This document shows positions 159 to 15,079 of a stretch of DNA of 64,000 bases, one piece after another. Where the stretch lies: assembly GCA_963745025.1 (NCBI GenBank), contig CAVUWD010000005.1, positions 96,001-160,000 of the forward strand, given 5' to 3'. Position numbers and translations under genes: made by a program. The notes beneath the pieces were generated by a model. The model had not been told where the DNA came from. It made no database searches and was given only the letters and a program-made list of their open reading frames with translations. How positions within the stretch are numbered: the stretch's first letter is position 1; the number at the start of each line of letters is the position of its first letter. This stretch comes from an uncultured delta proteobacterium. GTDB lineage: Bacteria > Desulfobacterota > Binatia > JACPRU01.

Positions 159-3100
159 CTACGCACCATCGACTGCGGGCGCTGACACCTCTCCTTCCCA
201 GTCCACGTCTTCGAGCAGGTACGCGAGCATCCGCGGATCGTCGTTGTCGGGTAGCTCTCGCTTCGGGATCAGCCACCGCGATGCGCGGATGTGGGCGTCG
301 ATCACGGATGCCGCTTCCGACACCGGAACGCGAATCTCGAACTCTCCCGGCCCGAAGCGGAATTCGCCGGCGGCGCGACCGTCGACGCAGACCTTGAGGG
401 TCTGCGGGCTGAGCGACGGGTAACATTCGGGAACCCTGACTCGCAGCCGCAAGCCGTGCCCGCGCCGGGGCAAGACGAGGTGCAGGTTCGGCGAGGCCCA
501 GCGGTCGGAATACCACTGAGCCGCCGAATCCGCCTTGCAGTACCTGGGGATAAACGTTTCGTAGCCGCGCGTCTGGACGAACGCGTCGAAGTACTCGGGA
601 TCGTGGCGCTGATGCGGCACCCCCGCCCGCAACTCGCCCGCCTGGGTCGCGTCGAAGAACCGGCGCAGCACGGCCTCGGTCTCTTCGACGCTGGCGTCGC
701 CGCTGCCGCGGAACGAATTCTCCCCGTGTATCCGATGGAAGTAGAGACGATCCGGGACGAACGTCGGGCTGGTGTATCGCAGGGCCGTCAGCAGGAAATC
801 CCAATCGTAGCACAGGCGCAGATCGCGGAAGCCGCCGACCAGGTCGAACAGCTCGCGGCGGAAGAACAGGTTTCCCGTGGACAGCGCGACGTTGAAATCG
901 AGCAGTGCATATTCGAGCCGCGGATATCGCAGGGCTTCATCGACTTTCGCCCGTAGACGATCCGCGTAGGGATCGCCTGGCGAGATCGCCGAGCCTTCCG
1001 CATCCACCAGATCCACCCCCGAGAACGACAGCGAGGAATCCGATCCGTCGAGCGCTCGGTGAAGCCGCGCGAGCCGCTCGGGATGATAAGAATCGTCCGA
1101 GTTCAGCACCGCGATGAAATCGCCCGCCGCGCTCTCCACGGCGCGATTGAGCGCCGCGGCGGGCCCCGCGTTGTGCTGCGCGACGATCTCCACCGGCAGC
1201 TTCGGGTTGCGCTCCGCAAACGACTTCGACAGCGCGAGAGTCGCATCGCTCGACCCGTCGTCGACGACCACGATCTCGAAATCGGACCACGTCTGGCGCA
1301 GCACCGATTCGAGCGCAAAGGAGACGTACGCCGCGTGATTGTAGGCCGGCACGACGACGGAGATCGCAGGGCGCGGCTTCCCGTACCGCCGCGACCGCGC
1401 CGTCACCTTGCGCAATGCCGCGGCGGTCGCGTTCAGGTACGCATAGCCGTAGCGCTTGTCCGGCTCGAGATGCGCTCCCTCGGCCCATTCGTTCCACGAG
1501 TTGACGAACACCAGCCGCCGGCTCGGCGGCTGATGCGCGACGGCGTCCTCGCATGCGCTCTGCAGCCATTGCTGATAGAGCCGCGGGCTGGCGCCCACGT
1601 ACACGTTGCCCAGTGCGCCGCGCCGCGGCGTGTTGTCCCAACCCGGCATGACGGCGCGGAACAACGGATACGCTTCTGGCCTCGATTGCATCTTGTCGAG
1701 CACGACGTCTTCGTAGTGGTACGCCGATCCCTCGTATCGCGGGTTCAGCAGCGCGAGCGAACCCGAGACCTGGCTCGCGCTCGTGCCGTGCGGCGGGAAC
1801 TCCACGGCGGCGTCGAATCCGAGCGGCACGGGGTCTTTCAGGCCGAAGGTCTGCGCGGCGACCAGGAACAGATCCCCGATGCCCGACTGGCGGCAATGAT
1901 GCCGCCAGCGCTCCACGGTGTCGCGCGGCTCGGGCAAGATGTCCGCTCGATAGACGACGAGCAGCGGCCTGCCCTCCACGCGGATGTAGCGCGGATCGCG
2001 GAAGATCGCCTCCACGTCGCGGATGAACGCGAAGTCGCTCTCGGGCGAATGCTCCTGGCCGAGCAGCAACTCCTGCTCCGCGCCGTCCCACCGTCGCGTC
2101 CAGTTCTCGTTCGCCCAGCAGATGCAGAACGGGCGATCGAGCCGCGGATTGTCGAGGAGCTGGCGCAGCGGGCGGTCGAGAAGCTTTCTGCCGTTGAACC
2201 AATAATAGTGATAACAGAACGCGTACACGCCGTAGTGCGTGGCGAGCTCCAACTGGCGGGCCTGGATCTCCTCACCGACCCGCAGATCGTAGAAGCCGAG
2301 CTCGCCCGGCAAGTGAGGCTGATAGTGGCCGACGAACTGCGGCTTCGCGCGCGTGACGTTGGTCCACTCAGTGAATCCCTTTCCCCACCATTCGTTGTTC
2401 TCGGGGATGGGATGAAACTGCGGCAGATAGAACGCGATCAGGCGCACCGTCGTCTCGCCGACCGCCGTCGCGGAGATGGGTTGATAGTCGGCGGAGGCTT
2501 CGGCGTAGAGCTCGCGCACCAGGTCCGCGTCGAGCAGATCGCGATCCGCATGGGCTGCGCCGGTGGCGGACCGGGGACGAGACGCTTCGCGGACAGCGGT
2601 CGACGGCTGCGGATCCGAGCGCGCTTGCGGCGGCGGGCCCAGCGCTTCCGAGATCGGCGCCGCAGCGGAGCCGGGGTCCGGCGTGGAGGGCGCGCCTCCG
2701 TTGCGGTCGAGGAACTTCGCCGCCGATCCCTTGAGGGCGCCGTAGAGAGCGCGGAGCGCGCTGCCCTCTGGGGCGACCCGGTCGAGGCGGCGTCGCAAGG
2801 ACTCGAGCGCCTGCCACCCCGCGGTGCCGCGGAACACGGACAGCTGCTCGTCGAGCCGAGCAACGATCCGTCCCCGCTCCTCGGCGCGCTCGATCTCCTC
2901 TTCGAGGCGGCGCGCCAGCTCGAGCCGCTCTCGCTCCGTCTCGTCGAGCCGGCGCTCGAGGATCCGCTGCCTGGTGTCGAGCATCGTGCGGACCTGCGTC
3001 AGCTCCCATCGCGCCCTCGCAGCGTCTCGCGCAGATTCACCAAGCCGCATCTCGAGCATTCGCCGCTTGTTGTCGCGGTTCGACCGCAGCTGCTCGACCT

Positions 3101-3938
3101 GGCGCCCGGGGTCGGCGAGCTCCAGCGCGCGCTCGCCGAGCCGTCGCTCGAGCTGCGAGACGTGCCCCTGATACCGCGCTGCGAGCAGCGATTCGGCGCG
3201 GCTCGCGCTGGGCAGCGCGGCGACGACGAAGAACTGATACGTGGTCGCCAGCGGGTCGCTTCGCAGCTCGGCCACCAGTTGCTCGGGGTATTTCGTGAGG
3301 TCGAGGCGCGTCTCGGTCTGATCGATGCCGCGCACGATGCGCGTCTGGCTTTGGATGGAGTACCCGGCGTCGCGGAACAAGCTCTGCACCGCCGTTTCGT
3401 CGAAGAAGCGGATGTGATCGCGGTCGAGAAGCCCGGTGTCCGTGTAGCGAAATGCGCCGGACAGAAGCGCGAGCCGCACCGCCCCGTGGGCGACGTTCGG
3501 GATCGACGCGAGGAGCCGCGCCTGCGGCGCCAGCACCGCCGCCAGCCGTCGCAGCACCTCGCCCGGATTGCGCAGATGCTCGAGGACGTCCAACGCCAGG
3601 ACGACGTCGAACCGTTCCGGGAAAGCCGCCGCGAAATCGAACGACTCGAGATCGGCGACGACGACCCTCTGGCAATGCGGCCGTGCGACGTCCGCGGCGG
3701 CCGGGTCGGCGTCCACCCCCCACACCGAGCAGCCCCGCGCCGCGAGAGCCGACGCGACGACGCCCGGCCCGCAGCCGACGTCCAGCACCTTGCTGCCGAC
3801 CGGGACGCTCAGCACGGCCAGGGTATGCGCGTTGTTGAGGTCGTTCAGGTTCAGCGGGACGAGGTATCGCAGCGCCGAAGCCTTGTCCGCACTGCCCGTC
3901 TGCTCGGCGCGCCGTTTTCGTACAACCGCTGGTTTCAA
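159..3938 (-). CDS. Multidomain glycan biosynthesis protein: class I SAM methyltransferase + coiled coil + WbsX/GH99-like domain + GT2 glycosyltransferase + C-terminal beta domain
   Basis: VLDVGCGPG SAM motif and DVLEHL; E/R/L-rich heptads about aa 255-400; IAFYLPQFHPIPENNEWWGKGFTEW...FVNSWNEWAEG (WbsX); ISVVVPAYNH...VVDDGSSD...LNSDD (GT2). TTG start uncertain. Confidence 0.9.
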   Translation of the reverse strand: MKPAVVRKRRAEQTGSADKASALRYLVPLNLNDLNNAHTLAVLSVPVGSKVLDVGCGPGVVASALAARGCSVWGVDADPAAADVARPHCQRVVVADLESFDFAAAFPERFDVVLALDVLEHLRNPGEVLRRLAAVLAPQARLLASIPNVAHGAVRLALLSGAFRYTDTGLLDRDHIRFFDETAVQSLFRDAGYSIQSQTRIVRGIDQTETRLDLTKYPEQLVAELRSDPLATTYQFFVVAALPSASRAESLLAARYQGHVSQLERRLGERALELADPGRQVEQLRSNRDNKRRMLEMRLGESARDAARARWELTQVRTMLDTRQRILERRLDETERERLELARRLEEEIERAEERGRIVARLDEQLSVFRGTAGWQALESLRRRLDRVAPEGSALRALYGALKGSAAKFLDRNGGAPSTPDPGSAAAPISEALGPPPQARSDPQPSTAVREASRPRSATGAAHADRDLLDADLVRELYAEASADYQPISATAVGETTVRLIAFYLPQFHPIPENNEWWGKGFTEWTNVTRAKPQFVGHYQPHLPGELGFYDLRVGEEIQARQLELATHYGVYAFCYHYYWFNGRKLLDRPLRQLLDNPRLDRPFCICWANENWTRRWDGAEQELLLGQEHSPESDFAFIRDVEAIFRDPRYIRVEGRPLLVVYRADILPEPRDTVERWRHHCRQSGIGDLFLVAAQTFGLKDPVPLGFDAAVEFPPHGTSASQVSGSLALLNPRYEGSAYHYEDVVLDKMQSRPEAYPLFRAVMPGWDNTPRRGALGNVYVGASPRLYQQWLQSACEDAVAHQPPSRRLVFVNSWNEWAEGAHLEPDKRYGYAYLNATAAALRKVTARSRRYGKPRPAISVVVPAYNHAAYVSFALESVLRQTWSDFEIVVVDDGSSDATLALSKSFAERNPKLPVEIVAQHNAGPAAALNRAVESAAGDFIAVLNSDDSYHPERLARLHRALDGSDSSLSFSGVDLVDAEGSAISPGDPYADRLRAKVDEALRYPRLEYALLDFNVALSTGNLFFRRELFDLVGGFRDLRLCYDWDFLLTALRYTSPTFVPDRLYFHRIHGENSFRGSGDASVEETEAVLRRFFDATQAGELRAGVPHQRHDPEYFDAFVQTRGYETFIPRYCKADSAAQWYSDRWASPNLHLVLPRRGHGLRLRVRVPECYPSLSPQTLKVCVDGRAAGEFRFGPGEFEIRVPVSEAASVIDAHIRASRWLIPKRELPDNDDPRMLAYLLEDVDWEGEVSAPAVDGA

Positions 3939-4827: not shown

Positions 4828-7524
4828 ATGACGCGTCGCGACGGTTGCGAGGTGCTGAGCTTCCGGGCGCGAGGGCTCTACCCGAACCTGCGGTGCATGC
4901 TCGCCAGCCTGTCCGAGCAGAGTCGACGGCGCCCCGCAGACGGTAAGTTGCCCGGCGACGTGGCGTCCGTGGTCGAGTGCACGGTTCGTGAGGATGGCCG
5001 CACGCGGAGCATCGAGCTGCCCGTAGGCGCTGCCGACCTGCTCGCGTTGCGCCACTCCGATCAGCCCGCCGCGCTTCACCACCTCTCCCTCATCCTCCGT
5101 GCCCAAAAGGGGGACGAGGCCAGCCGGAATGAGCTCCAAAGCATTGCCCAGAAGCGGTTTCGCAAGCTGCAGGATCGCCTCGACCGCCTCGAGCAGTTGG
5201 ATGACCGGTATCTGATCTTATCCAGCGACCAGCAGCAGTACCCCTCCGAAACGGCGAGCCACAAAGGGTCGATGCTGCTCCGGCTCAGCCAGCAGGGGTA
5301 TCCGGTTCCGGATTTCGTCATCCTCACCGCCGATGCCTATCCAGAGAGCGAGCAGCGCCTGAAGCAGCACGTCACCCGCGCCGTCGAAGCGCTCGAAGGC
5401 CTAGTCGGGCGTCGGCTCGGAGCACCGACGGAGCCCCTTGTGCTCGCCATGCGCTGCGCAATGCCTCAGTACTACCCAGGCTTGATGCCGACCTACCTCA
5501 ACGTGGGCATCACGGAGAGGACGCTGCCTGGCCTGGAGAGCCTTTTTGGCCGTCGTGCGTCCAATATGATGTACCTGAATAACCTCAAGAACCTTCTCGT
5601 CGCCTTGGGCGAGGAGACAGGCACGGTCCTCCGCAAAGCGGACGAGACGCCACCTGAGGACGCGGAGGAGTTCCTCGTCCGGCGCGTCGAAGAGGCATCG
5701 GCGAGGGTGCGCAAGCACGATCCCCGATTGCTTCAGGACGGATTCCATCAGGTTGCCTTCCTCGCTTTGGAGGCCTACCGCAACTTCGAGAGCAACGCCG
5801 ATCTCGTGGCCACCCTTTCGCGCGGCACGATCCAACGCCCGGCGATCATCATGCAAATGATGGTCTGCTCGGTCAGGGAAGAGAGGTCCTATGTGGGTGT
5901 GCTTTACAGCCGCAACCCGATGACCGGCTCAGGGTGCGAGATCGAGACCGCGATGGGGACCTTCGGGGAAGACATCATGACGGGGTCGGTGGAGACGACG
6001 CGGACCGACTTCGATGGTCCCGAGGAGATCCGCGAGGCTTTCCCTTCCGTGTTCAGCTTCATGCCCCTCGTACCCAAGCTGGAGCAGGAGTTTCAGTTCC
6101 CGGTCACCATCGAGTTTGCGGCCGAGGCCGGCGCCTACACCGAGCTCTTCGCGCTCCTCCAGCTCAACCAGACCGGCATGACCGGCCGCGCTGCCTTCAT
6201 CTCGGCAGTGGATCTTCACAAGGCCGGTACCATCTCCCGGAAGCGCATCCTCGAGCTGATCCAGCCGTACCACGTCAAGCAGATCGAGTCCGACACCATC
6301 GATACCCGCTCCTTCCAGGATCTCTACCGCTTCGGCGACGGCATCTCGATTCTCCCTCGCGCCGCCATCTGTGCCCGCGTTTACTTCTCTGCCGAGGAAG
6401 CCCTGAACGCCAAGCGGCGGGGCGAGAGCGTCTGTTTCTGCAAGCCGACATTCGCGCCCACCGACACCGTCGTCATGCAGGAGGTCGACGCCATCCTCAG
6501 CCTGAGCGCCGCCGCCATCCACGTGGTCACGATCTGCCAGAGCTTCGGCACCCCGGCCCTCTTGAACCTGGAGCGGGATGGCATCGCGTTGAAGCCCGAG
6601 CGATGCCTTGTCAACGCCGACGGGGTGGAGATCCACGAGGGAGACTTCGTGACCATCTCGTCGCGCCGGCAGGCGTTATTCAAAGGCAAGGCTCGGTTCG
6701 AGCCCGCCCGCTTCATCCGCTACCTGCAGGGCGAGGAGCCTGAGCTTACCGAGGCGGAGCGGAAGGCCTTCGAGGACATGGCCTATGCCTACCGCTACTA
6801 TTTCAAGCTCGTCAGTACACTCAGGCAGGAGCAGGTGACGAGCTTGTGGGAGCTCATCCGCCTGGTCAACCTCGAACTCCGCGGCAAAGAGGAGGAAGCC
6901 CGACAGTTCGTGCGGGCGTGGTGCGATAGTCACGAGCAGTTCTACGTCGACGAGGTGCTGCGCAGCGAGCTCGGCGATCACCTCAATCAGCACAGAGTGT
7001 TCGAGATGCTGACCGTGGATCAGAAGATCCGCTTCTTCGCCAAAGCTCTGGATCGTTGCGAGCGCGAGAAGATGTTCGGCTACGCCGCCGGCGCCTTCAT
7101 GCTTGGACGGTTCATCTCGACTCCCCTGCCGGTTGCCTTCTGGCGCTCATTCGGGCCAAGCAAGACCGCTCTCCTGCTGAACGAGTGGCTGCTTTTCGAG
7201 AAGTACATGCACGTGCTGCACAGCGTGGGCGAGCGGAAAATCAACCGCGCCCGGAAGCGCATCCTCAGCGAAGGGCTGCCCGAGATCCAGTTGGCACCGC
7301 CGGCGTTGACGGTGCTTGTCCCTTTGAAGCTGGCGGCAGCCGACATCACGTCTGTTCGCAAGTCGGTTCCCCAGTGGTGCGACCCGCAGCTCCCCAAGCT
7401 CCTGGACCTTCTCGAGAGGCCCTACAAGGCGTTCTTCGACTTCAAGGCGCCCTGGTCGCGCGGTAAGCTGGAGGCCATCTGCGACGAGGCCGGCCTCAAG
7501 ATGCCCGGCCCAGACGACCGGTAG
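4828..7524 (+). CDS. Divergent pyruvate,phosphate dikinase-like protein (ATP-grasp + phospho-His swivel domain, novel C-terminal domain)
   Basis: SHKGSMLLRLSQQGYPVPDFVILT, PLVLAMRCAMPQYYPGLMPTYLNVG, GVLYSRNPMTG, GEDIMTG and AILSLSAAAIHVVTICQSFGTP align to PPDK N-terminal and central domains; PEP/pyruvate barrel motifs absent. Confidence 0.85.
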   Translation: MTRRDGCEVLSFRARGLYPNLRCMLASLSEQSRRRPADGKLPGDVASVVECTVREDGRTRSIELPVGAADLLALRHSDQPAALHHLSLILRAQKGDEASRNELQSIAQKRFRKLQDRLDRLEQLDDRYLILSSDQQQYPSETASHKGSMLLRLSQQGYPVPDFVILTADAYPESEQRLKQHVTRAVEALEGLVGRRLGAPTEPLVLAMRCAMPQYYPGLMPTYLNVGITERTLPGLESLFGRRASNMMYLNNLKNLLVALGEETGTVLRKADETPPEDAEEFLVRRVEEASARVRKHDPRLLQDGFHQVAFLALEAYRNFESNADLVATLSRGTIQRPAIIMQMMVCSVREERSYVGVLYSRNPMTGSGCEIETAMGTFGEDIMTGSVETTRTDFDGPEEIREAFPSVFSFMPLVPKLEQEFQFPVTIEFAAEAGAYTELFALLQLNQTGMTGRAAFISAVDLHKAGTISRKRILELIQPYHVKQIESDTIDTRSFQDLYRFGDGISILPRAAICARVYFSAEEALNAKRRGESVCFCKPTFAPTDTVVMQEVDAILSLSAAAIHVVTICQSFGTPALLNLERDGIALKPERCLVNADGVEIHEGDFVTISSRRQALFKGKARFEPARFIRYLQGEEPELTEAERKAFEDMAYAYRYYFKLVSTLRQEQVTSLWELIRLVNLELRGKEEEARQFVRAWCDSHEQFYVDEVLRSELGDHLNQHRVFEMLTVDQKIRFFAKALDRCEREKMFGYAAGAFMLGRFISTPLPVAFWRSFGPSKTALLLNEWLLFEKYMHVLHSVGERKINRARKRILSEGLPEIQLAPPALTVLVPLKLAAADITSVRKSVPQWCDPQLPKLLDLLERPYKAFFDFKAPWSRGKLEAICDEAGLKMPGPDDR

Positions 7525-7533
7525 GTCGCGACG

Positions 7534-9972
7534 TCAGCTGTTGCGTGAGGACTGCTCGGGAGCGGCCTGATCATTGCCGCCGTACAGGAACCCGCGGTCC
7601 ACCTTGGGCTCCAGCTCGCCGAGTACGTCAGGGAGCTCCCCGCCTCCCCGTGCCGCCAACAGCCGGCCCATGGCGAGGGAGACGGAGAGAACCGCATTCA
7701 TTCCCAGGTTCGCCTTGCGCTGCATGACGGCGATCCGCTCCGCCACGGGCGCGTCGCGCGCGATCTTGCCGCGCTTGACTGCCAGATCCAGCTCCAACTC
7801 GAGAAGCTGACGATCGATGTGGACAAGGCTCTTGAACTCCGAGATGCGCTTTCCCATGAAGCGCGGTGCAATGACCTCCTCGACATTGGCCACGGCGTTG
7901 AGACAGCCCTTGCCGTCGTAACGCTTCGCCCTCATCCACAGCCCCGCCAGCTCGTCGTCGTTCTTCGCCGATATCGACTCCGCCCGGAGCCCGTCCCGGA
8001 AGTGGTAGACCTTCTCGGCCTCGTCATAGCGGAAGAGTTCGGGGTACTTCCGCGTGATGGGGCCGGCCTCGATCATGCTGTCGACGAGGTGGATGGCCTC
8101 GTCGGTTCCCGCCGAGGTCCCGAGGGGCGTCGCCGCCGTGAACTTGGTGCCGTTGTCGAGCCGGACGACTACCCCGACGGTAGGAATCCCCGCGTTGGTG
8201 GGCTCCTCATGGGCGCTGATGTCGCTGATGATGAGGTCGCCAGGCAGCCCCCGCGATGAGCGCACACCCTTCTCGGCCATGTGGATCAACTCCACGATGC
8301 GACCGTACTTGATGAGCCGCTCGGTGTTGCTGCCGCCTCCGCACTTGAGCCCGAGCGCGCCCACCGCGAAGGCGATGTCGGCTTCCATGACCTCGTTGGG
8401 CGATTTGGATCGATGGGAGACTACAAGCGCGAGGCCGTGCTCCTTGGCGGCGCGGGTGGCCAGCAGCGTCTCGCTGAGCGTGCCGATCTGGTTCGCCTTG
8501 ATGAGGGCGGTGTTGATGAGCCCCTCTTCGGCAGCGTGGATTATGGACGTGTCCTTGGTGGTGACGAGGTCGTCGCCGATGATCAGGATCTCATCGTCCA
8601 GCTCGGCCATGAGGCGCTTCCAGCCCTCGGGGTCGTCCTCGGAGAAGGCATCCTCCAAGGAGACGATGGGGTACTCGCGTATCCATCGCTTGTAAAGGTC
8701 CAGGAGTTCGTCGGTCGTCATCACCCGGGGATCCTCGGCGCGCCAGAAGAGGTACTTCCCGATGGACTCCTTCTCTCCGGTCTCCTCGCGGTAGGCCAGG
8801 CTGAGCTCACTGGCGGCCGGGTCGAGCGCCAGGCAGACATCGCGGTCGGGAACGAAGCCACACTCCTCGATGGCCTGCACCGCCACTTTGAGGGCGCGCT
8901 CCTCGGGGATGAGATCGCCCACACGGCGGGCGTAGGATGCGACGACGCCTCCTTCAAGACCGACGCCCACGAAGTTGAGCCCTTCCGAGTCCTGGATGAT
9001 CTGAATGACCCGGCTCTGGAGCGCGTTGGTCACGCGCTGGGCCTCGATGTAGTCCCTGGCTGTGAGGGGGATGAACATCAGCTCCTGGAAGCTGAGGTTG
9101 CCGCCCATGTCCTCCGTGTGTCTCCCGCCCATGATGGAGTTCCTGAACTCCCATGGCGCGAATACGAGCCTGCCATCGGGCAGCTCGACCTCCTGGAGGC
9201 GGTGGATCTGGAGCTTGCGCTTGATGCGCACAGACAGGGCGGTGTCGCGCAGCGTCTCCGAATCACCTCCGCTCTTCGCGGCTATCTCATGCACGGCCTT
9301 GGCCTTGCGGGCTGCCTCTCCCTGTCGCTCGCGAAACGCCCTGTACTTGCCTGGATCCGCAAGCAGGAAGTCGAACAACGCCACCGCGCCTACGGTGAAG
9401 AGCAGGCGTCCCCCAACTACCATGGGTTCGATATTCCCCATGCGGCCGAAGGCCATGAGGGCGACACCGGAGGGGAAAGCGGCCAACGCCAGCCACTTGC
9501 TGGCGTTGGGGCCGGCGGCCGAGACGGCGAGGTTCTGGGCTTTTACGGCCGGATGGTAGCTGCCAGCCTCCTTGGTGACTCCCATGGCGGCGCCCCAGGG
9601 TATCTTGAGGAACAGCTCGAGATAGAAGAGCCACCTGGCCCAGAACCCCTCCGCCATCCTGGCTTGGGCCGGGCCCAGGAACTCGGGGCGGAGGTTGTTG
9701 GTGCGCACGGCCGCGAGGTAGTGACCCATCTCATGGAGCGCAATGTTGGCATGCCAGGCCGCGTACCAGATGGCGGCTGAGATGACCACCTCAATGCTGA
9801 AGAACATCTGCCGGGCGACATCCGCCCGCGAGCTGATCGACTCCGAGATGCTCAGTAGAGAGGTGAGAAATGCCGCGTGAAAGGAGACCAGCTTGTGGTT
9901 GGCGATGACCCAACCCCGGTCCAGCCGCGGCCAGCCCCCTTCCTCATGGCTCTGAGAAGCAAACAAGTTCAC
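7534..9972 (-). CDS. M50/S2P-like membrane domain fused to a circularly permuted enolase
   Basis: N-terminus has TM helices, HEMGH and SAAGP; barrel motifs LALDPAASE, YPIVSLEDA, GDDL, LIKANQIGTLSET, SHRS; enolase N-terminal capping domain (GIPTV, PLGTSAGTDEA, YDGKGCLNAV, LGMNAVLSVSLA) lies at the C-terminus. Confidence 0.9.
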   Translation of the reverse strand: MNLFASQSHEEGGWPRLDRGWVIANHKLVSFHAAFLTSLLSISESISSRADVARQMFFSIEVVISAAIWYAAWHANIALHEMGHYLAAVRTNNLRPEFLGPAQARMAEGFWARWLFYLELFLKIPWGAAMGVTKEAGSYHPAVKAQNLAVSAAGPNASKWLALAAFPSGVALMAFGRMGNIEPMVVGGRLLFTVGAVALFDFLLADPGKYRAFRERQGEAARKAKAVHEIAAKSGGDSETLRDTALSVRIKRKLQIHRLQEVELPDGRLVFAPWEFRNSIMGGRHTEDMGGNLSFQELMFIPLTARDYIEAQRVTNALQSRVIQIIQDSEGLNFVGVGLEGGVVASYARRVGDLIPEERALKVAVQAIEECGFVPDRDVCLALDPAASELSLAYREETGEKESIGKYLFWRAEDPRVMTTDELLDLYKRWIREYPIVSLEDAFSEDDPEGWKRLMAELDDEILIIGDDLVTTKDTSIIHAAEEGLINTALIKANQIGTLSETLLATRAAKEHGLALVVSHRSKSPNEVMEADIAFAVGALGLKCGGGSNTERLIKYGRIVELIHMAEKGVRSSRGLPGDLIISDISAHEEPTNAGIPTVGVVVRLDNGTKFTAATPLGTSAGTDEAIHLVDSMIEAGPITRKYPELFRYDEAEKVYHFRDGLRAESISAKNDDELAGLWMRAKRYDGKGCLNAVANVEEVIAPRFMGKRISEFKSLVHIDRQLLELELDLAVKRGKIARDAPVAERIAVMQRKANLGMNAVLSVSLAMGRLLAARGGGELPDVLGELEPKVDRGFLYGGNDQAAPEQSSRNS

Positions 9973-10458: not shown

Positions 10459-11505
10459 ATGCATGAGCGCCAGCGCGCAACGATGAACGCCGCAGCGGCG
10501 ATCACCCTCGTGGTCGTCGGATCGTCAGCCTGTGCGGTGCCGTCCGGCGGGGGTCGCGGCGGGCCCCCGGCGGCCACCGCCGTCGTCGCCACCATTCCGC
10601 TCAGCAACTACGGTACCGACGTGGCGGTGCGTCCCGACGGCACGCGCGCCTACGTGCCGCTTCAGACCGGCAGTGTCCTCGCCCTCGACCTAACCAGCAG
10701 GCAGGTCGCCAGTACGATCACGACGGACGGGCGACCTTCCGCGATCGCCCTCACCAGCGACGGCGCGCACGCCTACGTGACGGACTTGACCGCTCAGTCC
10801 CTCTTCGTGCTCGACACGACCAACGACAGCCTGGCCAAGAGCATATCGATCGGAACGATCGCGCGGCCGACCCGGACGCCGGCGGTGGCGGTCAGCCGTG
10901 ACGGCCGGTGGGCATATGTTACCAACGCCACGGTCATGGACGACCATCTCCTCGTCATCGACACCGCGACCAACACCGTCGTAGGCAACCATTCCCTGGA
11001 CGTCCATCCCGTGGGAATCGCGGTGAGCCCGGACGGACGGCGCCTGTACGTCGCCGGGTGCAAGTTGTCGTGCGTCGACGGCGCCCTGCTCGTCCTCGAC
11101 GCGGCGAGCGCCAACGTCGTCTCCAGTATCCCTCTGCAGGCGGCTCCCGCCGGCTTCGTCCTGGCCCCCGACGGCTCTCGTGCGTACGCCTCGACCGGGC
11201 TTTCGGGAACGGTTCTGGCCATCGATCTCACCACCGGCACCGTCACGACGATCCCCGTCGACGCCGAGCCTCTCGGCGTTGCCATCGACCCGCGCGGCGT
11301 CTTCGTTTACGTGACCTGCTACGGCGCGAGCGACGTAGCCGTCATTGACACCCGCACGAACACGGTGGTCTCGACGGTCCCCGTGGCCAATGAACCGCGG
11401 GCGATCGCCGTGAGCCCCGATGGCCGGCTTGCCTACGTGACGCACTCTTCACCGACCTGTTCGGTGATCGACCTGCAGCGCGTCACGGGAGGCCCCGGCA
11501 CGTGA
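10459..11505 (+). CDS. YVTN/YncE-family beta-propeller lipoprotein
   Basis: Repeated P.GIAVSPDG..AYVT / VIDT.TNTVV units; signal peptide ending GSSAC. Confidence 0.85.
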   Translation: MHERQRATMNAAAAITLVVVGSSACAVPSGGGRGGPPAATAVVATIPLSNYGTDVAVRPDGTRAYVPLQTGSVLALDLTSRQVASTITTDGRPSAIALTSDGAHAYVTDLTAQSLFVLDTTNDSLAKSISIGTIARPTRTPAVAVSRDGRWAYVTNATVMDDHLLVIDTATNTVVGNHSLDVHPVGIAVSPDGRRLYVAGCKLSCVDGALLVLDAASANVVSSIPLQAAPAGFVLAPDGSRAYASTGLSGTVLAIDLTTGTVTTIPVDAEPLGVAIDPRGVFVYVTCYGASDVAVIDTRTNTVVSTVPVANEPRAIAVSPDGRLAYVTHSSPTCSVIDLQRVTGGPGT

Positions 11506-12378: not shown

Positions 12379-12575
12379 CCGTAAAAACGGACGTTCCGAG
12401 GCATCACAAAACGGCCAAAACGGCGGCGGTCCAACGGGTCGCCTCTTGGCGTCTTGTCCGGTCTGCCTACTCGGTAGGACCGGTCTACCTGCCTGTGATA
12501 ACAACGTCGTCGCTAGCCCGAGTGCGGCGGCGCAGCGCGCAGTCGACAAAACCAAATCAAGAGGAAGGATCTCAT

Positions 12576-15079
12576 ATGAACGCAGTCAAGCAGGTCGTCG
12601 CGATAGCGCTTTCAGGTGTCGCGTTTGCGCTTCCTTCCTCATCCTGCATCGCGCAGCAAGTTACCGGTGAGTTGGGTTCGCCCAGCGCCACCACCACGAT
12701 CAGCGGAAAACAACTTCCGCCGCCCGATCCGAAGTTCGGCGGGGTGATCAAGGAGAAGGCCTCGGAGTCGAAGGCGTGGTGGCCGCCGCGCGTCGTGCCG
12801 CCGAAGGGCGCGCCCAACGTGCTGCTCATCATGACGGACGATGCCGGGTTCGGCGCGCCGAGCACGTTCGGCGGCGTCGTCCCGACCCCGGCCTTGGATC
12901 GCATCGCGAACAACGGGCTGCGGTACACGCAGTTTCACTCCACGTCGCTGTGCTCACCGACGCGGGCGGCGTTGATCACCGGACGCAACCATCACGTGGC
13001 CGGCTTTGGGGTCGTGGGCGAAGCGGCGACGGGGTTCCCGGGTTACGACTCGATCATCAGGAAGGATACCGGCACGATCGGCACGATCCTGAAGGAGAAC
13101 GGGTACGCGACCTCGTGGTTCGGCAAGGACCACAACACGCCCTTCTACCTGGCGAGCCAGGCCGGGCCGTTCGATCAATGGCCCATCGGGATGGGCTTCG
13201 AGTATTTCTACGGGTTCGTCGGCGGCGACACCAGCCAGTGGCAACCGAACCTGTTCCGCAACACGACCGCCATCTATCCCTTCCAGGGGAATCCCGGCTG
13301 GAATCTGACCACGGCGATGGCCGATGACGCGATCCAGTACATGAAGCAGCTCAAGGAGATCGCGCCCGACAAACCGTTCTTTGTCTATTACGTACCGGGC
13401 GGCACACACGCGCCGCATCATCCGACGCCGGAGTGGATCAAGAAGATCAGCGACATGCACCTGTTCGACGGCGGCTGGAACAAACTGCGCGAGACCATCT
13501 TCGCCAACCAGAAACGGCTCGGCATCATGCCCGCCGATGCCAAGCTGACGCCGTGGCCGAAGGATCTGCCGGAGTGGGATTCGCTCAGTTGGGACGAGAA
13601 GAAGCTCTTCATCAAGCAAGCCGACGTCTACGGGGCGTACCTCGCGTACACCGACCACGAGATCGGCCGGGTGATCCAGGCCGTCGAAGACCTGGGCGAA
13701 CTCGACAACACGCTTGATCATCTACATCAGCGGCGACAACGGCGCGAGCGCCGAAGGCATGCTCAACGGGACACCGAACGAGTTCACCACCTTCAATGGT
13801 GTTCCCGTGCCGGTCAAGGATCAGTTTCTCTGGTACGAGTTCTGGGGATCGGAACGGACCTTTCCGCACTTTGCGGCGGGCTGGGCGTGGGCGATGGACA
13901 CGCCGTTCAAGTGGACCAAGCAGGTGGCGTCGCATTTCGGCGGGACGGCCCAGGGCGTTGGCCATGTCCTGGCCCGGCCACATCAAGGACGTGGGCGGCA
14001 TCCGCAACCAGTTCCACCACGTCATCGATATCGTGCCGACGATCCTCGAAGCGACCGGCGTCTCTGCGCCCGAAACGATCGACGGCATCAGGCAGCGCCC
14101 GATCGAAGGCGTGAGCATGGCGTACACGTGGGACAAGGCGAACGCCAACGCGCCCACCAAACACACCACGCAGTACTTCGAGATGCTCGGCAATCGCGCC
14201 ATCTATCACGACGGTTGGGTGGCGGCGACGACCCCGGTGACCATCCCGTGGGAACTGAACACCGCCACGCCTCCGGACGTGATCACCGGCTACAAGTGGG
14301 AGCTCTACAACATCAAAGAGGACGTCACCGAGGCCAACGATCTCGCGGCCAAGATGCCGGACAAGCTCAAGCAAATGCAGGACGTCTTCTACGCCGAGGC
14401 GAAGAAGTACGACGTGCTGCCGCTCGACAACTCGACGCTCGCGCGCTTCCTCACGCCTCGTCCGAGCGCAACTGCGGGACGGAAGGTCTTCACGTATTCG
14501 GGCGAATTGACCGGCGTGCCGGCCAGCGCCGCCCCGAACATCCTGGACAAGTCCTACACCATCACCGCCGAGGTCGAGATTCCCGAGGGCGGCGCGGAAG
14601 GCATGATCGTCACCGAGGGCGGTCGCTTCGGCGGCTACGGCCTGTTCCTGAGCAAGGGCGAGTTCGGAATCGGCCGCGGCAAGGTGGTGTTTCTCTACAA
14701 CCTGCTCGATCTCAAGCGGACGGCCTGGGAAGGGCCGGAGCTGAGCGCCGGCAAGCACACCATCGTGTTCGACTTCAAGTTCGACGGCCCCGGTCTCGGC
14801 AAGGGCGGCACGGGCGTGCTGTCCGTGGACGGCAAGGAAGTGGCCAAGAACTCCATGGAGCACACCACCCCCATCATGTTCCCCGAAGACGAAGACTTCG
14901 ACGTCGGGCAAGACACGCGCACCCCGTTGGCGCTCATCGAGTATCGCTACGATTGTCCGTTCAAGTTCACGGGCAAGATCGACAAGCTGACCTTCGACCT
15001 CGGCCCGGCGCAGTACACGGAAGCGGAGCGCAAGCAACTTCCGGTCATTGCCGACCGGGTCGCCCGCGCGAAGGACTGA
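12576..15079 (+). CDS. Secreted arylsulfatase (formylglycine type), split by two frameshifts (about 13715 and 13958)
   Basis: PNVLLIMTDD, CSPTRAALITGR, GKDH; continues in ORFs 13714 (ISGDNGAS) and 13796 (QFHHVIDIVPT, WELY); RBS GAGGAAGG before ATG 12576. Confidence 0.85.

What the first reader, a model, noticed from the sequence alone, without database searches (positions are those of the whole stretch)
7534..9250. Circularly permuted enolase with intact catalytic residues
Seen: the barrel comes first (NSIMGGRH...QELMFIP...GLEGG...LDPAASE...SLEDA...GDDL...IKANQIG...SHRS...LKCG...ERLIKY). After a short linker (about 8235-8290) comes the domain that is normally N-terminal (ISAHEEPTNAGIPTV, PLGTSAGTDEA, YDGKG, LGMNAVLSVSLA), carrying an insert of about 50 aa. 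Equivalents of yeast Ser39, His159, Glu168, Glu211, Asp246, Glu295, Asp320, Lys345, His373-Arg374-Ser375 and Lys396 all appear present. The normally invariant DEGG and HRSGETED read LEGG and HRSKSPNE. Canonical enolases have the opposite domain order. The ORF is unbroken.
Basis: partly seen in the sequence, partly recalled or inferred. Interest (0 to 1): 0.88.

Follow-up and report, generated by a model that had tools for sequence, protein, structure and literature searches.

The report
Membrane-anchored, domain-swapped enolase with dikinase partner
This gene encodes an enolase whose two domains sit in reverse order behind a membrane protease-like anchor, a conserved and apparently undescribed form of a central glycolytic enzyme that seems to be the only enolase in some Planctomycete genomes.

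Summary
ORF 7534-9972 (-) encodes 812 aa. It has an M50 (site-2-protease-like) membrane domain (1-~237), an enolase TIM barrel (262-568), a 12-aa linker, and then the enolase N-domain (581-800) carrying a ~50-aa insert.

It is not a misassembly. Fifty loci from several phyla share the order, and an independent metagenome contig bridges the junction.

All 12 catalytic or ligand-binding equivalents are invariant in 66 of 66 members. The M50 HExxH and Asp206 are kept in 65 of 66.

In one Planctomycete order, 35 sampled genomes have only a canonical enolase, 5 have only the permuted one, and none has both. So it most likely is a working 2-phosphoglycerate/PEP enolase.

In the window's clade it is a second enolase. 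It lies convergent to a PPDK-like protein (4828-7524) that has an ATP-grasp and a phosphohistidine domain but no PEP/pyruvate barrel. That partner is present in 35 of 37 evaluable loci. In another clade the same kind of dikinase module is fused to the enolase module.

The link to the dikinase and the role of the M50 domain are inferred, not shown. Seven full-text paper searches found no description.

The parts
7534..9972 (-). Whole ORF, 812 aa plus stop: M50-like membrane domain followed by a circularly permuted enolase
   Evidence: AF2 model mean pLDDT 85.1, pTM 0.81
9262..9972 (-). Residues 1-237: M50 (site-2-protease-like) membrane domain. Four hydrophobic helices (~28-46, 55-79, 148-179, 182-205), a beta-hairpin at 132-141, and a charged helix at 209-233
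   Evidence: Peptidase_M50 scores 26.1 bits in the whole protein and 28.1 bits (cut-off 27.2) for the domain alone; 28 of 31 family members match. Hydropathy, secondary structure
9721..9735 (-). HEMGH (residues 80-84), the HExxH zinc motif of the M50-like domain
   Evidence: H80, E81 and H84 kept in 65 of 66 members; aligns with the HExxH of an M50 protein of the same genome
9355..9357 (-). Asp206 in LLADPG, the probable third metal ligand (LDG-like motif)
   Evidence: D in 65 of 66 members. The assignment rests on motif order HExxH...AAGP...D compared with own-genome M50 proteins and is inferred
8269..9189 (-). Residues 262-568: enolase TIM barrel (the domain that is normally C-terminal)
   Evidence: Enolase_C E 2.9e-54. 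Foldseek to PDB enolases: ~295-312 columns, rmsd 2.5-3.3 A, probability 1.00
8953..8955 (-). Glu340, equivalent to the general acid (yeast Glu211) within LEGG
   Evidence: 66 of 66; alignment
8497..8499 (-). Lys492, equivalent to the general base (yeast Lys345) within LIKANQIG
   Evidence: 66 of 66; alignment
8233..8268 (-). Residues 569-580: new linker joining the old C-terminus of the barrel to the old N-terminus
   Evidence: Lies between helix 549-568 and strand 581-590 in the model; unaligned to 1iyx
7573..8232 (-). Residues 581-800: enolase N-domain (three strands, then helices), placed after the barrel
   Evidence: Enolase_N 55.3 bits; query 581-631 and 683-754 align to 1iyx 3-53 and 57-123
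8113..8115 (-). Ser620 in PLGTSAGTDEA, equivalent to the Mg(II)-binding serine of the lid loop (yeast Ser39)
   Evidence: 66 of 66
7927..8079 (-). Residues 632-682: family-specific insert next to the lid loop
   Evidence: About 51 residues where 1iyx has 3. Modelled as a hairpin plus helices. F647, F658 and L675 are invariant in 52 sequences
4828..7524 (+). Convergent partner gene, 898 aa: a PPDK-like dikinase-type protein without a PEP/pyruvate barrel
   Evidence: TIGR01828 119 bits, far below the 843 cut-off. Aligns to PPDK 1dik 21-513. Foldseek to PPDK, E 4e-22. Adjacent and convergent in 35 loci
5215..6222 (+). Partner residues 130-465: ATP-grasp nucleotide-binding domain
   Evidence: PPDK_N; alignment to 1dik; model
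6520..6522 (+). Partner His565, aligned with the phospho-carrier histidine of PPDK (GGMTSH motif)
   Evidence: Alignment; invariant in 31 of 31 partner homologs
6703..7521 (+). Partner residues 626-898: conserved all-alpha domain in place of the PEP/pyruvate TIM barrel
   Evidence: Helices only in the model. No Pfam hit. Many invariant columns. 84 homologs, 82 of them 833-934 aa long

Best explanation
The gene encodes a polytopic inner-membrane protein. Its cytoplasmic part is a complete, catalytically competent enolase with the two domains in reverse order: barrel, 12-residue linker, then the N-domain with the lid loop.

Shown:
- The reversed domain order.
- The fold of the barrel.
- Invariance of every residue that in canonical enolase binds the two Mg2+ ions and the substrate's carboxylate and phosphate, and of the Lys/Glu base-acid pair.
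- Presence of the same architecture in several phyla.

Inferred, strongly: it catalyses 2-phosphoglycerate <-> phosphoenolpyruvate. In one Planctomycete order it is the only enolase detected, and it never co-occurs there with the canonical gene.

Inferred: the N-terminal M50-like domain has four helices, and HExxH and Asp206 would lie at the cytoplasmic face. This holds the enzyme at the membrane, and it may itself be an active metalloprotease.

Inferred, for the window's clade: here the protein is a second enolase beside the canonical one. It probably works with the convergent neighbour, a PPDK-type protein with an ATP-grasp domain and a swivelling phosphohistidine (His565) but no PEP/pyruvate barrel. 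In this reading, PEP made or consumed in the enolase barrel is linked to an ATP/AMP-His phosphoryl relay. The chemistry of that link is not known.
For: Architecture:
- Pfam order M50 / Enolase_C / Enolase_N.
- Three-piece alignment to 1iyx.
- AF2 model pLDDT 85.1, pTM 0.81.
- Foldseek to enolases, rmsd 2.5-3.3 A over ~300 columns.

Catalytic set: 12 of 12 positions invariant in 66 of 66 members, down to 36% identity.

A real, single family:
- 50 loci and at least 1000 clusters.
- In a quick tree of 115 barrel rows, the 45 classed permuted and the 57 classed canonical are split by one branch, SH-aLRT 99.
- Contigs of other runs bridge the junction.

Working enolase:
- 8 of 8 Planctomycete carrier genomes show no canonical enolase.
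- PGK is present in 5 of the 5 tested.
- In that order, of 42 distinct genomes sampled, 35 have the canonical gene only, 5 the permuted gene only, 0 both, and 2 neither.

M50 domain: 28 of 31 domains match Peptidase_M50; HExxH and D206 are kept in 65 of 66.

Partner:
- Convergent and downstream in 35 of 37 loci with enough flank.
- His565 invariant in 31 of 31.
- PPDK_N plus the PEP-utilizers swivel domain is fused to the permuted module in L047 (an uninterrupted 2184-aa ORF), P0129 and P0148 with a GGSTSH/GGSSSH motif, in P0145 on the N-terminal side, and in P0159.
- Precedent for dikinases built from separate parts: the HpeHI abstract (PMC12167813).
Against: - No activity data exist.
- The protein scores 240 bits against TIGR01060, under its 300-bit equivalog cut-off.
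- LEGG replaces DEGG in 65 of 66 members, KSPNE replaces GETED, and a 50-aa insert sits beside the lid loop. A shifted specificity is therefore possible.
- All carriers are metagenome-assembled genomes. Completeness of the Planctomycete ones was not given. They all belong to one order, so the displacement may be a single event.
- The partner is convergent, so it is not co-transcribed. With this query it was not found in 5 of 5 Planctomycete carriers, so the enolase does not need it.
- The fused forms carry ~780 aa of unknown sequence between the enolase and the dikinase parts.
- M50 scores just below the Pfam cut-off in the whole protein, and a profile of the domain finds no PDB sequence.
- I could not superpose the N-domain non-sequentially on a solved enolase.
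Confidence: 0.7

Rival explanations
1. The enolase module is mainly a metabolite-sensing or gating domain for an active M50 intramembrane protease. Binding of 2-PG/PEP, or phosphorylation by the dikinase-like partner, would control cleavage of a membrane substrate. This would resemble cytoplasmic CBS domains on some site-2 proteases (recalled, not tested).
For: - HExxH and Asp206 are kept in 65 of 66 members, and 28 of 31 domains match Peptidase_M50.
- The enolase follows directly after the helix that carries Asp206, so it would sit under the protease's cytoplasmic face.
- Histidine-kinase genes lie upstream in two Planctomycete loci.
Against: - A pure sensor would not need the acid/base pair and both metal sites, yet all are invariant.
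- The gene replaces the canonical enolase in one order, which requires catalysis.
- The two roles do not exclude each other.
Confidence: 0.15
2. In the window's clade (the copies paired with the dikinase-like protein), the permuted enzyme has shifted to a related 2-phospho-acid or enol-phosphate substrate that the partner makes or uses. It would not be a plain second enolase.
For: - A canonical enolase is also present in 6 of 6 non-Planctomycete carriers, so a second identical activity seems redundant.
- Family-specific changes exist: LEGG, Lys523 next to Ser522 in 63 of 66, and the 50-aa insert at the lid.
- The partner has its own conserved all-alpha domain that could bind a small substrate, as in rifampin phosphotransferase-type dikinases.
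Against: - Every residue that contacts 2-PG in canonical enolase is kept.
- The window's clade and the Planctomycete sole-enolase clade are 57-61% identical overall and group together in the barrel tree.
Confidence: 0.12
3. The reversed order is an assembly or gene-calling artefact, or the gene is a decaying pseudogene.
For: - The window's genome is a metagenome bin with 7.6% contamination.
- Two loci (L045, L050) have the gene split into two frames.
Against: - 50 independent loci from at least five phylum labels have the same order in one frame.
- There is 57-92% identity across phyla with invariant active-site residues.
- Contigs from other runs cross the junction.
Confidence: 0.01

Closest known systems
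Canonical enolase / phosphopyruvate hydratase (TIGR01060; Pfam Enolase_N + Enolase_C; e.g. PDB 1iyx, 1e9i)
   Same: - Both domains are recognisable.
- The barrel is 31-35% identical to solved enolases and superposes at 2.5-3.3 A.
- All metal, substrate and acid/base residues are kept.
- It takes the canonical gene's place in one Planctomycete order.
   Different: - The domain order is reversed, cut at the inter-domain linker and rejoined by a 12-aa linker.
- It has a ~50-aa insert beside the lid loop, LEGG for DEGG, and KSPNE for GETED.
- It is fused to a membrane domain.
- It scores below the equivalog cut-off (240 vs 300 bits).
- It forms a separate clade.
M50 site-2 proteases (Pfam PF02163), including forms with cytoplasmic regulatory domains
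   Same: - HExxH in a membrane helix, an AAGP motif, and an Asp in an LDG-like motif, in the same order as in the M50 proteins of the same genome.
- 28 of 31 domains match PF02163.
   Different: - Only about half of the Pfam profile is matched (positions 10-106 of 221).
- ADPG stands in place of LDGG.
- There is no PDZ or CBS domain; a whole enolase is attached instead.
- No proteolytic substrate is known.
Pyruvate, phosphate dikinase (PPDK; TIGR01828; PDB 1dik/1kbl) and PEP synthase
   Same: The partner keeps the ATP-grasp domain and the swivel domain, and a histidine aligned with the phospho-carrier His.
   Different: - It has no PEP/pyruvate TIM barrel. A conserved all-alpha domain stands in its place, and there is an extra N-terminal domain.
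- It has AAAIH instead of GGMTSH.
- It scores 119 bits against a cut-off of 843.
Small-molecule dikinases built from separate modules (rifampin phosphotransferase; two-component HpeHI, PMC12167813, abstract read)
   Same: An ATP-grasp plus swivel-His module combined with a different substrate-binding part, in some cases on a separate polypeptide. They are Foldseek hits of the partner model at E 7e-07 to 3e-06.
   Different: - The domain order differs.
- The presumed acceptor/donor site here would be an enolase, or the partner's own all-alpha domain.
- No such pairing with an enolase was found in the searched literature.

Membership tests
Enolase (phosphopyruvate hydratase) | Enolase_C TIM-barrel domain above the Pfam cut-off | tested here: met
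   184.8 bits vs 21.5; Foldseek probability 1.00 to many enolases
Enolase (phosphopyruvate hydratase) | Enolase_N domain with the lid-loop serine | tested here: met
   55.3 bits vs 35; S620 kept in 66 of 66
Enolase (phosphopyruvate hydratase) | N-domain precedes the barrel in the chain | tested here: not met
   The barrel (273-562) precedes the N-domain (581-754)
Enolase (phosphopyruvate hydratase) | Metal ligands (Asp246, Glu295, Asp320, Ser39), base Lys345, acid Glu211, and the substrate binders His159, Glu168, His373, Arg374, Ser375, Lys396 (yeast numbering, recalled) | tested here: met
   D384, E440, D467, S620, K492, E340, H285, E297, H520, R521, S522 and K543, each 66 of 66
Enolase (phosphopyruvate hydratase) | Score over the NCBIfam equivalog cut-off (TIGR01060, 300 bits) | tested here: not met
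   240.1 bits in three stretches
Enolase (phosphopyruvate hydratase) | Catalyses 2-PG <-> PEP | not testable with these tools
   Indirect only: it is the sole enolase found in 8 of 8 Planctomycete carriers and is mutually exclusive with the canonical gene in that order
Peptidase M50 (site-2 protease) | Pfam PF02163 over its cut-off (27.2 bits) | tested here: inconclusive
   26.1 bits in the whole protein and 28.1 bits for the domain alone; 28 of 31 members match at E <= 0.01; no PDB hit with the domain profile
Peptidase M50 (site-2 protease) | HExxH in a membrane helix plus a downstream Asp ligand (LDG motif) | tested here: met
   HEMGH 80-84 and D206 in LLADPG, kept in 65 of 66. The motif reads ADPG, not LDGG (for comparison)
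Peptidase M50 (site-2 protease) | Intramembrane proteolysis of a substrate | not testable with these tools
   No substrate candidate is conserved in the neighbourhood
Pyruvate, phosphate dikinase (partner gene) | ATP-grasp nucleotide-binding domain | tested here: met
   PPDK_N, alignment to 1dik 21-513, Foldseek E 4e-22
Pyruvate, phosphate dikinase (partner gene) | Phospho-carrier histidine in the swivel domain | tested here: met
   H565 aligns with the His of GGMTSH and is invariant in 31 of 31. The domain itself is modelled with low confidence
Pyruvate, phosphate dikinase (partner gene) | C-terminal PEP/pyruvate-binding TIM barrel (PEP-utilizers_C) | tested here: not met
   No Pfam hit. Residues 626-898 are modelled as helices only. 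TIGR01828 119 vs 843 bits

The most novel reading that the evidence does not exclude
The permuted enolase, its M50 domain and the barrel-less dikinase together form a membrane-bound phosphotransfer machine. In it an enolase barrel has taken the place of the PEP-utilizers barrel of PPDK or PTS Enzyme I. The swivelling histidine would draw phosphate from, or deliver it to, PEP generated in situ from 2-PG, and the metalloprotease site would link this flux to a membrane event. In one Planctomycete order the same membrane-embedded enzyme would carry the entire enolase step of glycolysis.
Probability: 0.2. Interest if true: 0.9.

Novelty: new variant of a known kind. Interest (0 to 1): 0.78.

Why it matters
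Enolase is among the most conserved enzymes known, and its N-domain-then-barrel layout is treated as fixed across the whole enolase superfamily.

Why the family is of interest:
- It shows the fold tolerating a cut at the domain linker.
- A core glycolytic enzyme can be built into a membrane protein.
- This form appears to have displaced the canonical gene in one bacterial lineage.
- It is abundant in soil, wetland and sediment metagenomes and is currently labelled 'hypothetical protein' or plain 'enolase'.

The recurring pairing and fusion with a dikinase that lacks its PEP-binding barrel points to an unrecognised way of linking PEP to ATP-grasp/phosphohistidine chemistry. Automatic pathway reconstruction would also score the Planctomycete carriers as lacking enolase, because the protein falls below the equivalog cut-off.

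Tried and rejected
- Complex prediction of the enolase part (262-800) with the partner's C-terminal domain (626-898) gave no answer: score 0.01 against a mark of 0.32, controls not run. It says nothing either way.
- ESM Atlas on the partner's C-domain gave only sub-threshold leads (0.87 or lower; 'PEP-utilizing enzyme family', Rph_4th). On the ~780-aa spacer of the L047 fusion it gave no usable hit.
- A profile of the M50-like domain found no PDB sequence at E <= 10.
- hhalign against two own-genome M50 proteins gave only short motif-level matches, probability 56% and 1.5%.
- PADLOC found no defence family for either protein.
- No third conserved gene was found. None of the other window ORFs in 1-24000 recurs next to the module, apart from frames overlapping the two genes and one-locus hits at about 21.9-22.6 kb. 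Genes inserted between the pair in nine loci are unrelated, except one shared by L010 and L014.
- Planctomycete neighbours are lineage-specific. They are a PAS/GAF histidine kinase in L036 and L037 and a GT4 glycosyltransferase in L039, L040 and L044.
- The order-level census centred on G202 drew the same order as G201, so it is not an independent replicate.
- The RNA-library run X20 gave one 221-nt contig (9070-9290, 6 differences). DNA can be present in such libraries, so this does not show transcription.
- The depth spike at 8401-8582 comes from short contigs of other organisms' enolases.
- Literature: seven full-text searches found no description of a permuted or M50-fused enolase or of an enolase/dikinase pair. 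I read passages of PMC2575518, which proved irrelevant, and the abstract and outline of PMC12167813. Subscription-only papers are not covered. Supplements were not needed.
Full report
**What is in the sequence**

The finding lies inside one unbroken ORF, 7534-9972 on the minus strand, 812 aa. Pfam reads it, in order, as follows:
- Peptidase_M50, residues 77-239, 26.1 bits
- Enolase_C, residues 273-561, E 2.9e-54
- Enolase_N, 55.3 bits, best stretch 682-774

The alignment to the solved enolase 1iyx has three pieces:
- query 273-562 = enolase 143-410
- query 581-631 = enolase 3-53
- query 683-754 = enolase 57-123

So the chain was cut at the canonical inter-domain linker. The old C-terminus is rejoined to the old N-terminus by about 12 residues (569-580). 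About 50 residues (632-682) are inserted just after the lid loop.

**Structure**

An AlphaFold2 model built from 52 homologs has mean pLDDT 85.1 and pTM 0.81. Its parts are:
- long helices up to residue 233
- an alternating strand/helix barrel over 260-568
- three strands, then helices, over 581-800

Foldseek matches the barrel to dozens of solved enolases over ~295-312 columns at rmsd 2.5-3.3 A. The search aligns sequentially, so it cannot show the N-domain in place. I had no way to run a permutation-aware superposition.

**Real and conserved**

- A word-indexed search of 5.8 billion proteins returned 1000 hits among the 8000 candidates scored. All of the best 120 carry Enolase_N plus Enolase_C. 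Most are ~800 aa and 75-100% identical to the enolase part.
- Genome contigs gave 54 loci. Fifty have the permuted gene. Their labels are Binatia (92% identity), Elusimicrobia, Acidobacteriota/Terriglobia, 'Deltaproteobacteria', Desulfurellales and Planctomycetota. Four are ordinary enolases.
- In a quick IQ-TREE of 115 barrel domains, one branch separates the 45 rows classed as permuted from the 57 classed as canonical (SH-aLRT 99, length 0.87). The other 13 rows had no N-domain hit and were left unclassified. One origin of the permutation is therefore not ruled out. The root is only a midpoint.
- Contigs of other public runs cross the barrel/N-domain junction: X1, 1661 nt, 7746-9406, 33 differences; X3, 8146-8304. 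Misassembly is excluded.

**Active site**

I compared 66 family members: the window, 46 locus ORFs and 19 cluster representatives, down to ~36% identity.
- The equivalents of the enolase metal ligands, substrate binders and acid/base pair are each present in 66 of 66. They are H285, E297, E340, D384, E440, D467, K492, H520, R521, S522, K543 and S620.
- L339 replaces the Asp of DEGG in 65 of 66.
- K523 follows S522 in 63 of 66.
- The yeast numbers are recalled.

**Evidence that it works as an enolase**

- The window's genome also has a canonical enolase, 425 aa, 411.7 bits. So do five other non-Planctomycete carriers. In total 6 of 6 have both genes.
- In 8 of 8 Planctomycete carriers the permuted gene is the only strong Enolase_C match. 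In the five also searched with TIGR01060, none has a match over its cut-off.
- PGK is found in 5 of the 5 tested.
- I sampled the order that holds these carriers in two overlapping draws, 42 distinct genomes in all. Thirty-five have a canonical enolase and no permuted one. Five have only the permuted one (G201, G202, G203, G205, G230; 213-218 bits, frames of 823-879 aa). None has both, and two have neither.
- Caveats: these are metagenome bins of unstated completeness, they are kin, and the displacement may be a single event. Even so, the mutually exclusive pattern is what replacement of the canonical enzyme predicts.

**The membrane domain**

- Hydropathy and the model give four membrane helices (~28-46, 55-79, 148-179, 182-205), a beta-hairpin at 132-141, and a charged helix at 209-233 that leads into the enolase.
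- HEMGH (80-84) and D206 (LLADPG) are kept in 65 of 66 members.
- Between them lies NLAVSAAGP. This aligns with the AAGP motif of an M50 protein of the same genome.
- Scanned alone, the domain scores 28.1 bits (cut-off 27.2), and 28 of 31 family domains match Peptidase_M50.
- A profile of the domain finds no PDB sequence.
- I read it as a divergent M50 domain whose metal site is probably intact and faces the cytoplasm next to the enolase. Whether it cleaves anything is unknown.

**The partner**

The convergent neighbour (4828-7524, 898 aa; its stop codon lies 9 nt from the enolase gene's stop) aligns with PPDK residues 21-513. That region holds the ATP-grasp and swivel domains. Partner His565 aligns with the His of GGMTSH and is invariant in 31 of 31 homologs. 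It scores far below the PPDK equivalog cut-off (119 vs 843 bits).

Its model (pLDDT 76.9) has:
- an extra N-terminal domain (1-125)
- the ATP-grasp domain
- a poorly modelled swivel domain
- an all-helical domain (626-898) where PPDK has its PEP/pyruvate barrel

Foldseek ranks PPDK first (E 4e-22). Rifampin phosphotransferase, HpeI and PEP synthase follow.

The partner lies downstream and convergent in 35 loci. Of the 41 loci that are neither Planctomycete nor fused, 4 end at a contig edge. That leaves 35 of 37 evaluable loci with the partner; L012 and L018 lack it. Its C-domain family is small and uniform: 84 proteins, 82 of them 833-934 aa, nearly all named 'hypothetical'. The C-domain query found the partner in the window's genome only among 201 genomes of its phylum, and in 0 of 5 Planctomycete carriers.

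**Fusions**

Cluster representatives at ~50% identity include proteins of 1000-6041 aa that embed the whole M50 plus permuted-enolase module.
- PPDK_N and the PEP-utilizers swivel domain are on the same chain in P0129, P0148 and the uninterrupted 2184-aa frame of L047. They follow the module after ~780 aa of unknown sequence, and these three carry a classical GGSTSH or GGSSSH motif.
- In P0145 they lie on the N-terminal side, though the swivel hit there is weak (E 0.02).
- P0159 has the dikinase part by BLAST and profile search.
- None of these fusions has a PEP-utilizers_C barrel, and none has the stand-alone partner's N- or C-domain.

Adjacency in one clade and fusion in another argue that the permuted enolase and an ATP-grasp/phosphohistidine module work together.

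**Reading**

Most likely this is a catalytically competent 2-PG/PEP enolase held at the cytoplasmic face of the membrane by an M50-like domain. In the window's clade it is a second enolase dedicated to a dikinase-type partner. The partner lacks its own PEP site, so the PEP site may be supplied by the enolase barrel, or the substrate site by the partner's all-helical domain.

- Shown: the architecture, the conservation, the distribution and the gene linkage.
- Inferred: the catalysis, the topology, the coupling and any protease activity.
- Rivals: the enolase acts as sensor for an M50 protease; a shifted substrate in the paired clade; artefact (rejected).

**Distribution and novelty**

The module is patchy. 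Its membrane domain was found in 2 of 201 genomes of the window's own phylum, counting the window's genome; the other is a 2436-aa fused form. It is 70-77% identical between phyla, which suggests horizontal spread.

NCBIfam has no model that claims it. Sources name it 'hypothetical protein' or 'enolase'. Seven full-text searches found no description.

I rate it a new variant of a known kind, of high interest to enzymologists and to those who reconstruct metabolism from genomes.

Noticed in passing
L003:12665-14068 (+); L012:16491-17867 (+): In the closest relative's locus (a Binatia bin), a canonical enolase gene lies directly downstream of the permuted one on the same strand, and ~7 kb separate the pair from the dikinase-like partner. 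A Terriglobales bin also has a canonical enolase 4 kb downstream.
   Followed up: partly
P0124-P0141, P0134 (6041 aa), G181:C80 (2436-aa frame): A sister clade at ~50% identity embeds the whole M50 plus permuted-enolase module in giant proteins. Their other regions share homology with one another but match no Pfam family.
   Followed up: partly
window 9187-9200 (-); proteins P0032, P0110: Two metagenome proteins of 545-549 aa start exactly at the equivalent of Val262 (MELPDGR...), just where the enolase part begins. In the window the codons before it read AGGAGG, but residue 262 is GTC, which is not a start codon. This could mean an internal start in some relatives, or simply truncated gene calls.
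   Followed up: partly
L045:5837-8504; L050:1349-3774: In two bins the permuted gene is split into two overlapping frames (476+486 aa and 568+315 aa). This is either a frameshift or a sequencing error.
   Followed up: no
window 159-3938 (-): A 1259-aa multidomain protein combining a methyltransferase, a WbsX glycosyltransferase and a family-2 glycosyltransferase. It is not conserved next to the module.
   Followed up: no
window 10459-11505 (+) and 12495-14114 (+): A beta-propeller protein (lactonase/YNCE-like repeats) and a sulfatase lie beyond the enolase gene's start. They are not conserved in related loci.
   Followed up: no
window 8401-8582: Metagenome contig depth rises 20- to 200-fold over the stretch that encodes LIKANQIGT...SHRS. 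Short contigs from many other organisms' enolases match there at 90% or more DNA identity.
   Followed up: no
L036:4190-7768; L037:4487-8335: In two Planctomycete loci a ~1200-aa PAS/GAF histidine kinase lies immediately upstream on the same strand. In three others a GT4 glycosyltransferase lies divergently upstream.
   Followed up: no
window 7522-7536: The stop codons of the two convergent genes are only 9 nt apart, which leaves no room for separate terminators. In other loci the gap is mostly 20-200 nt.
   Followed up: no
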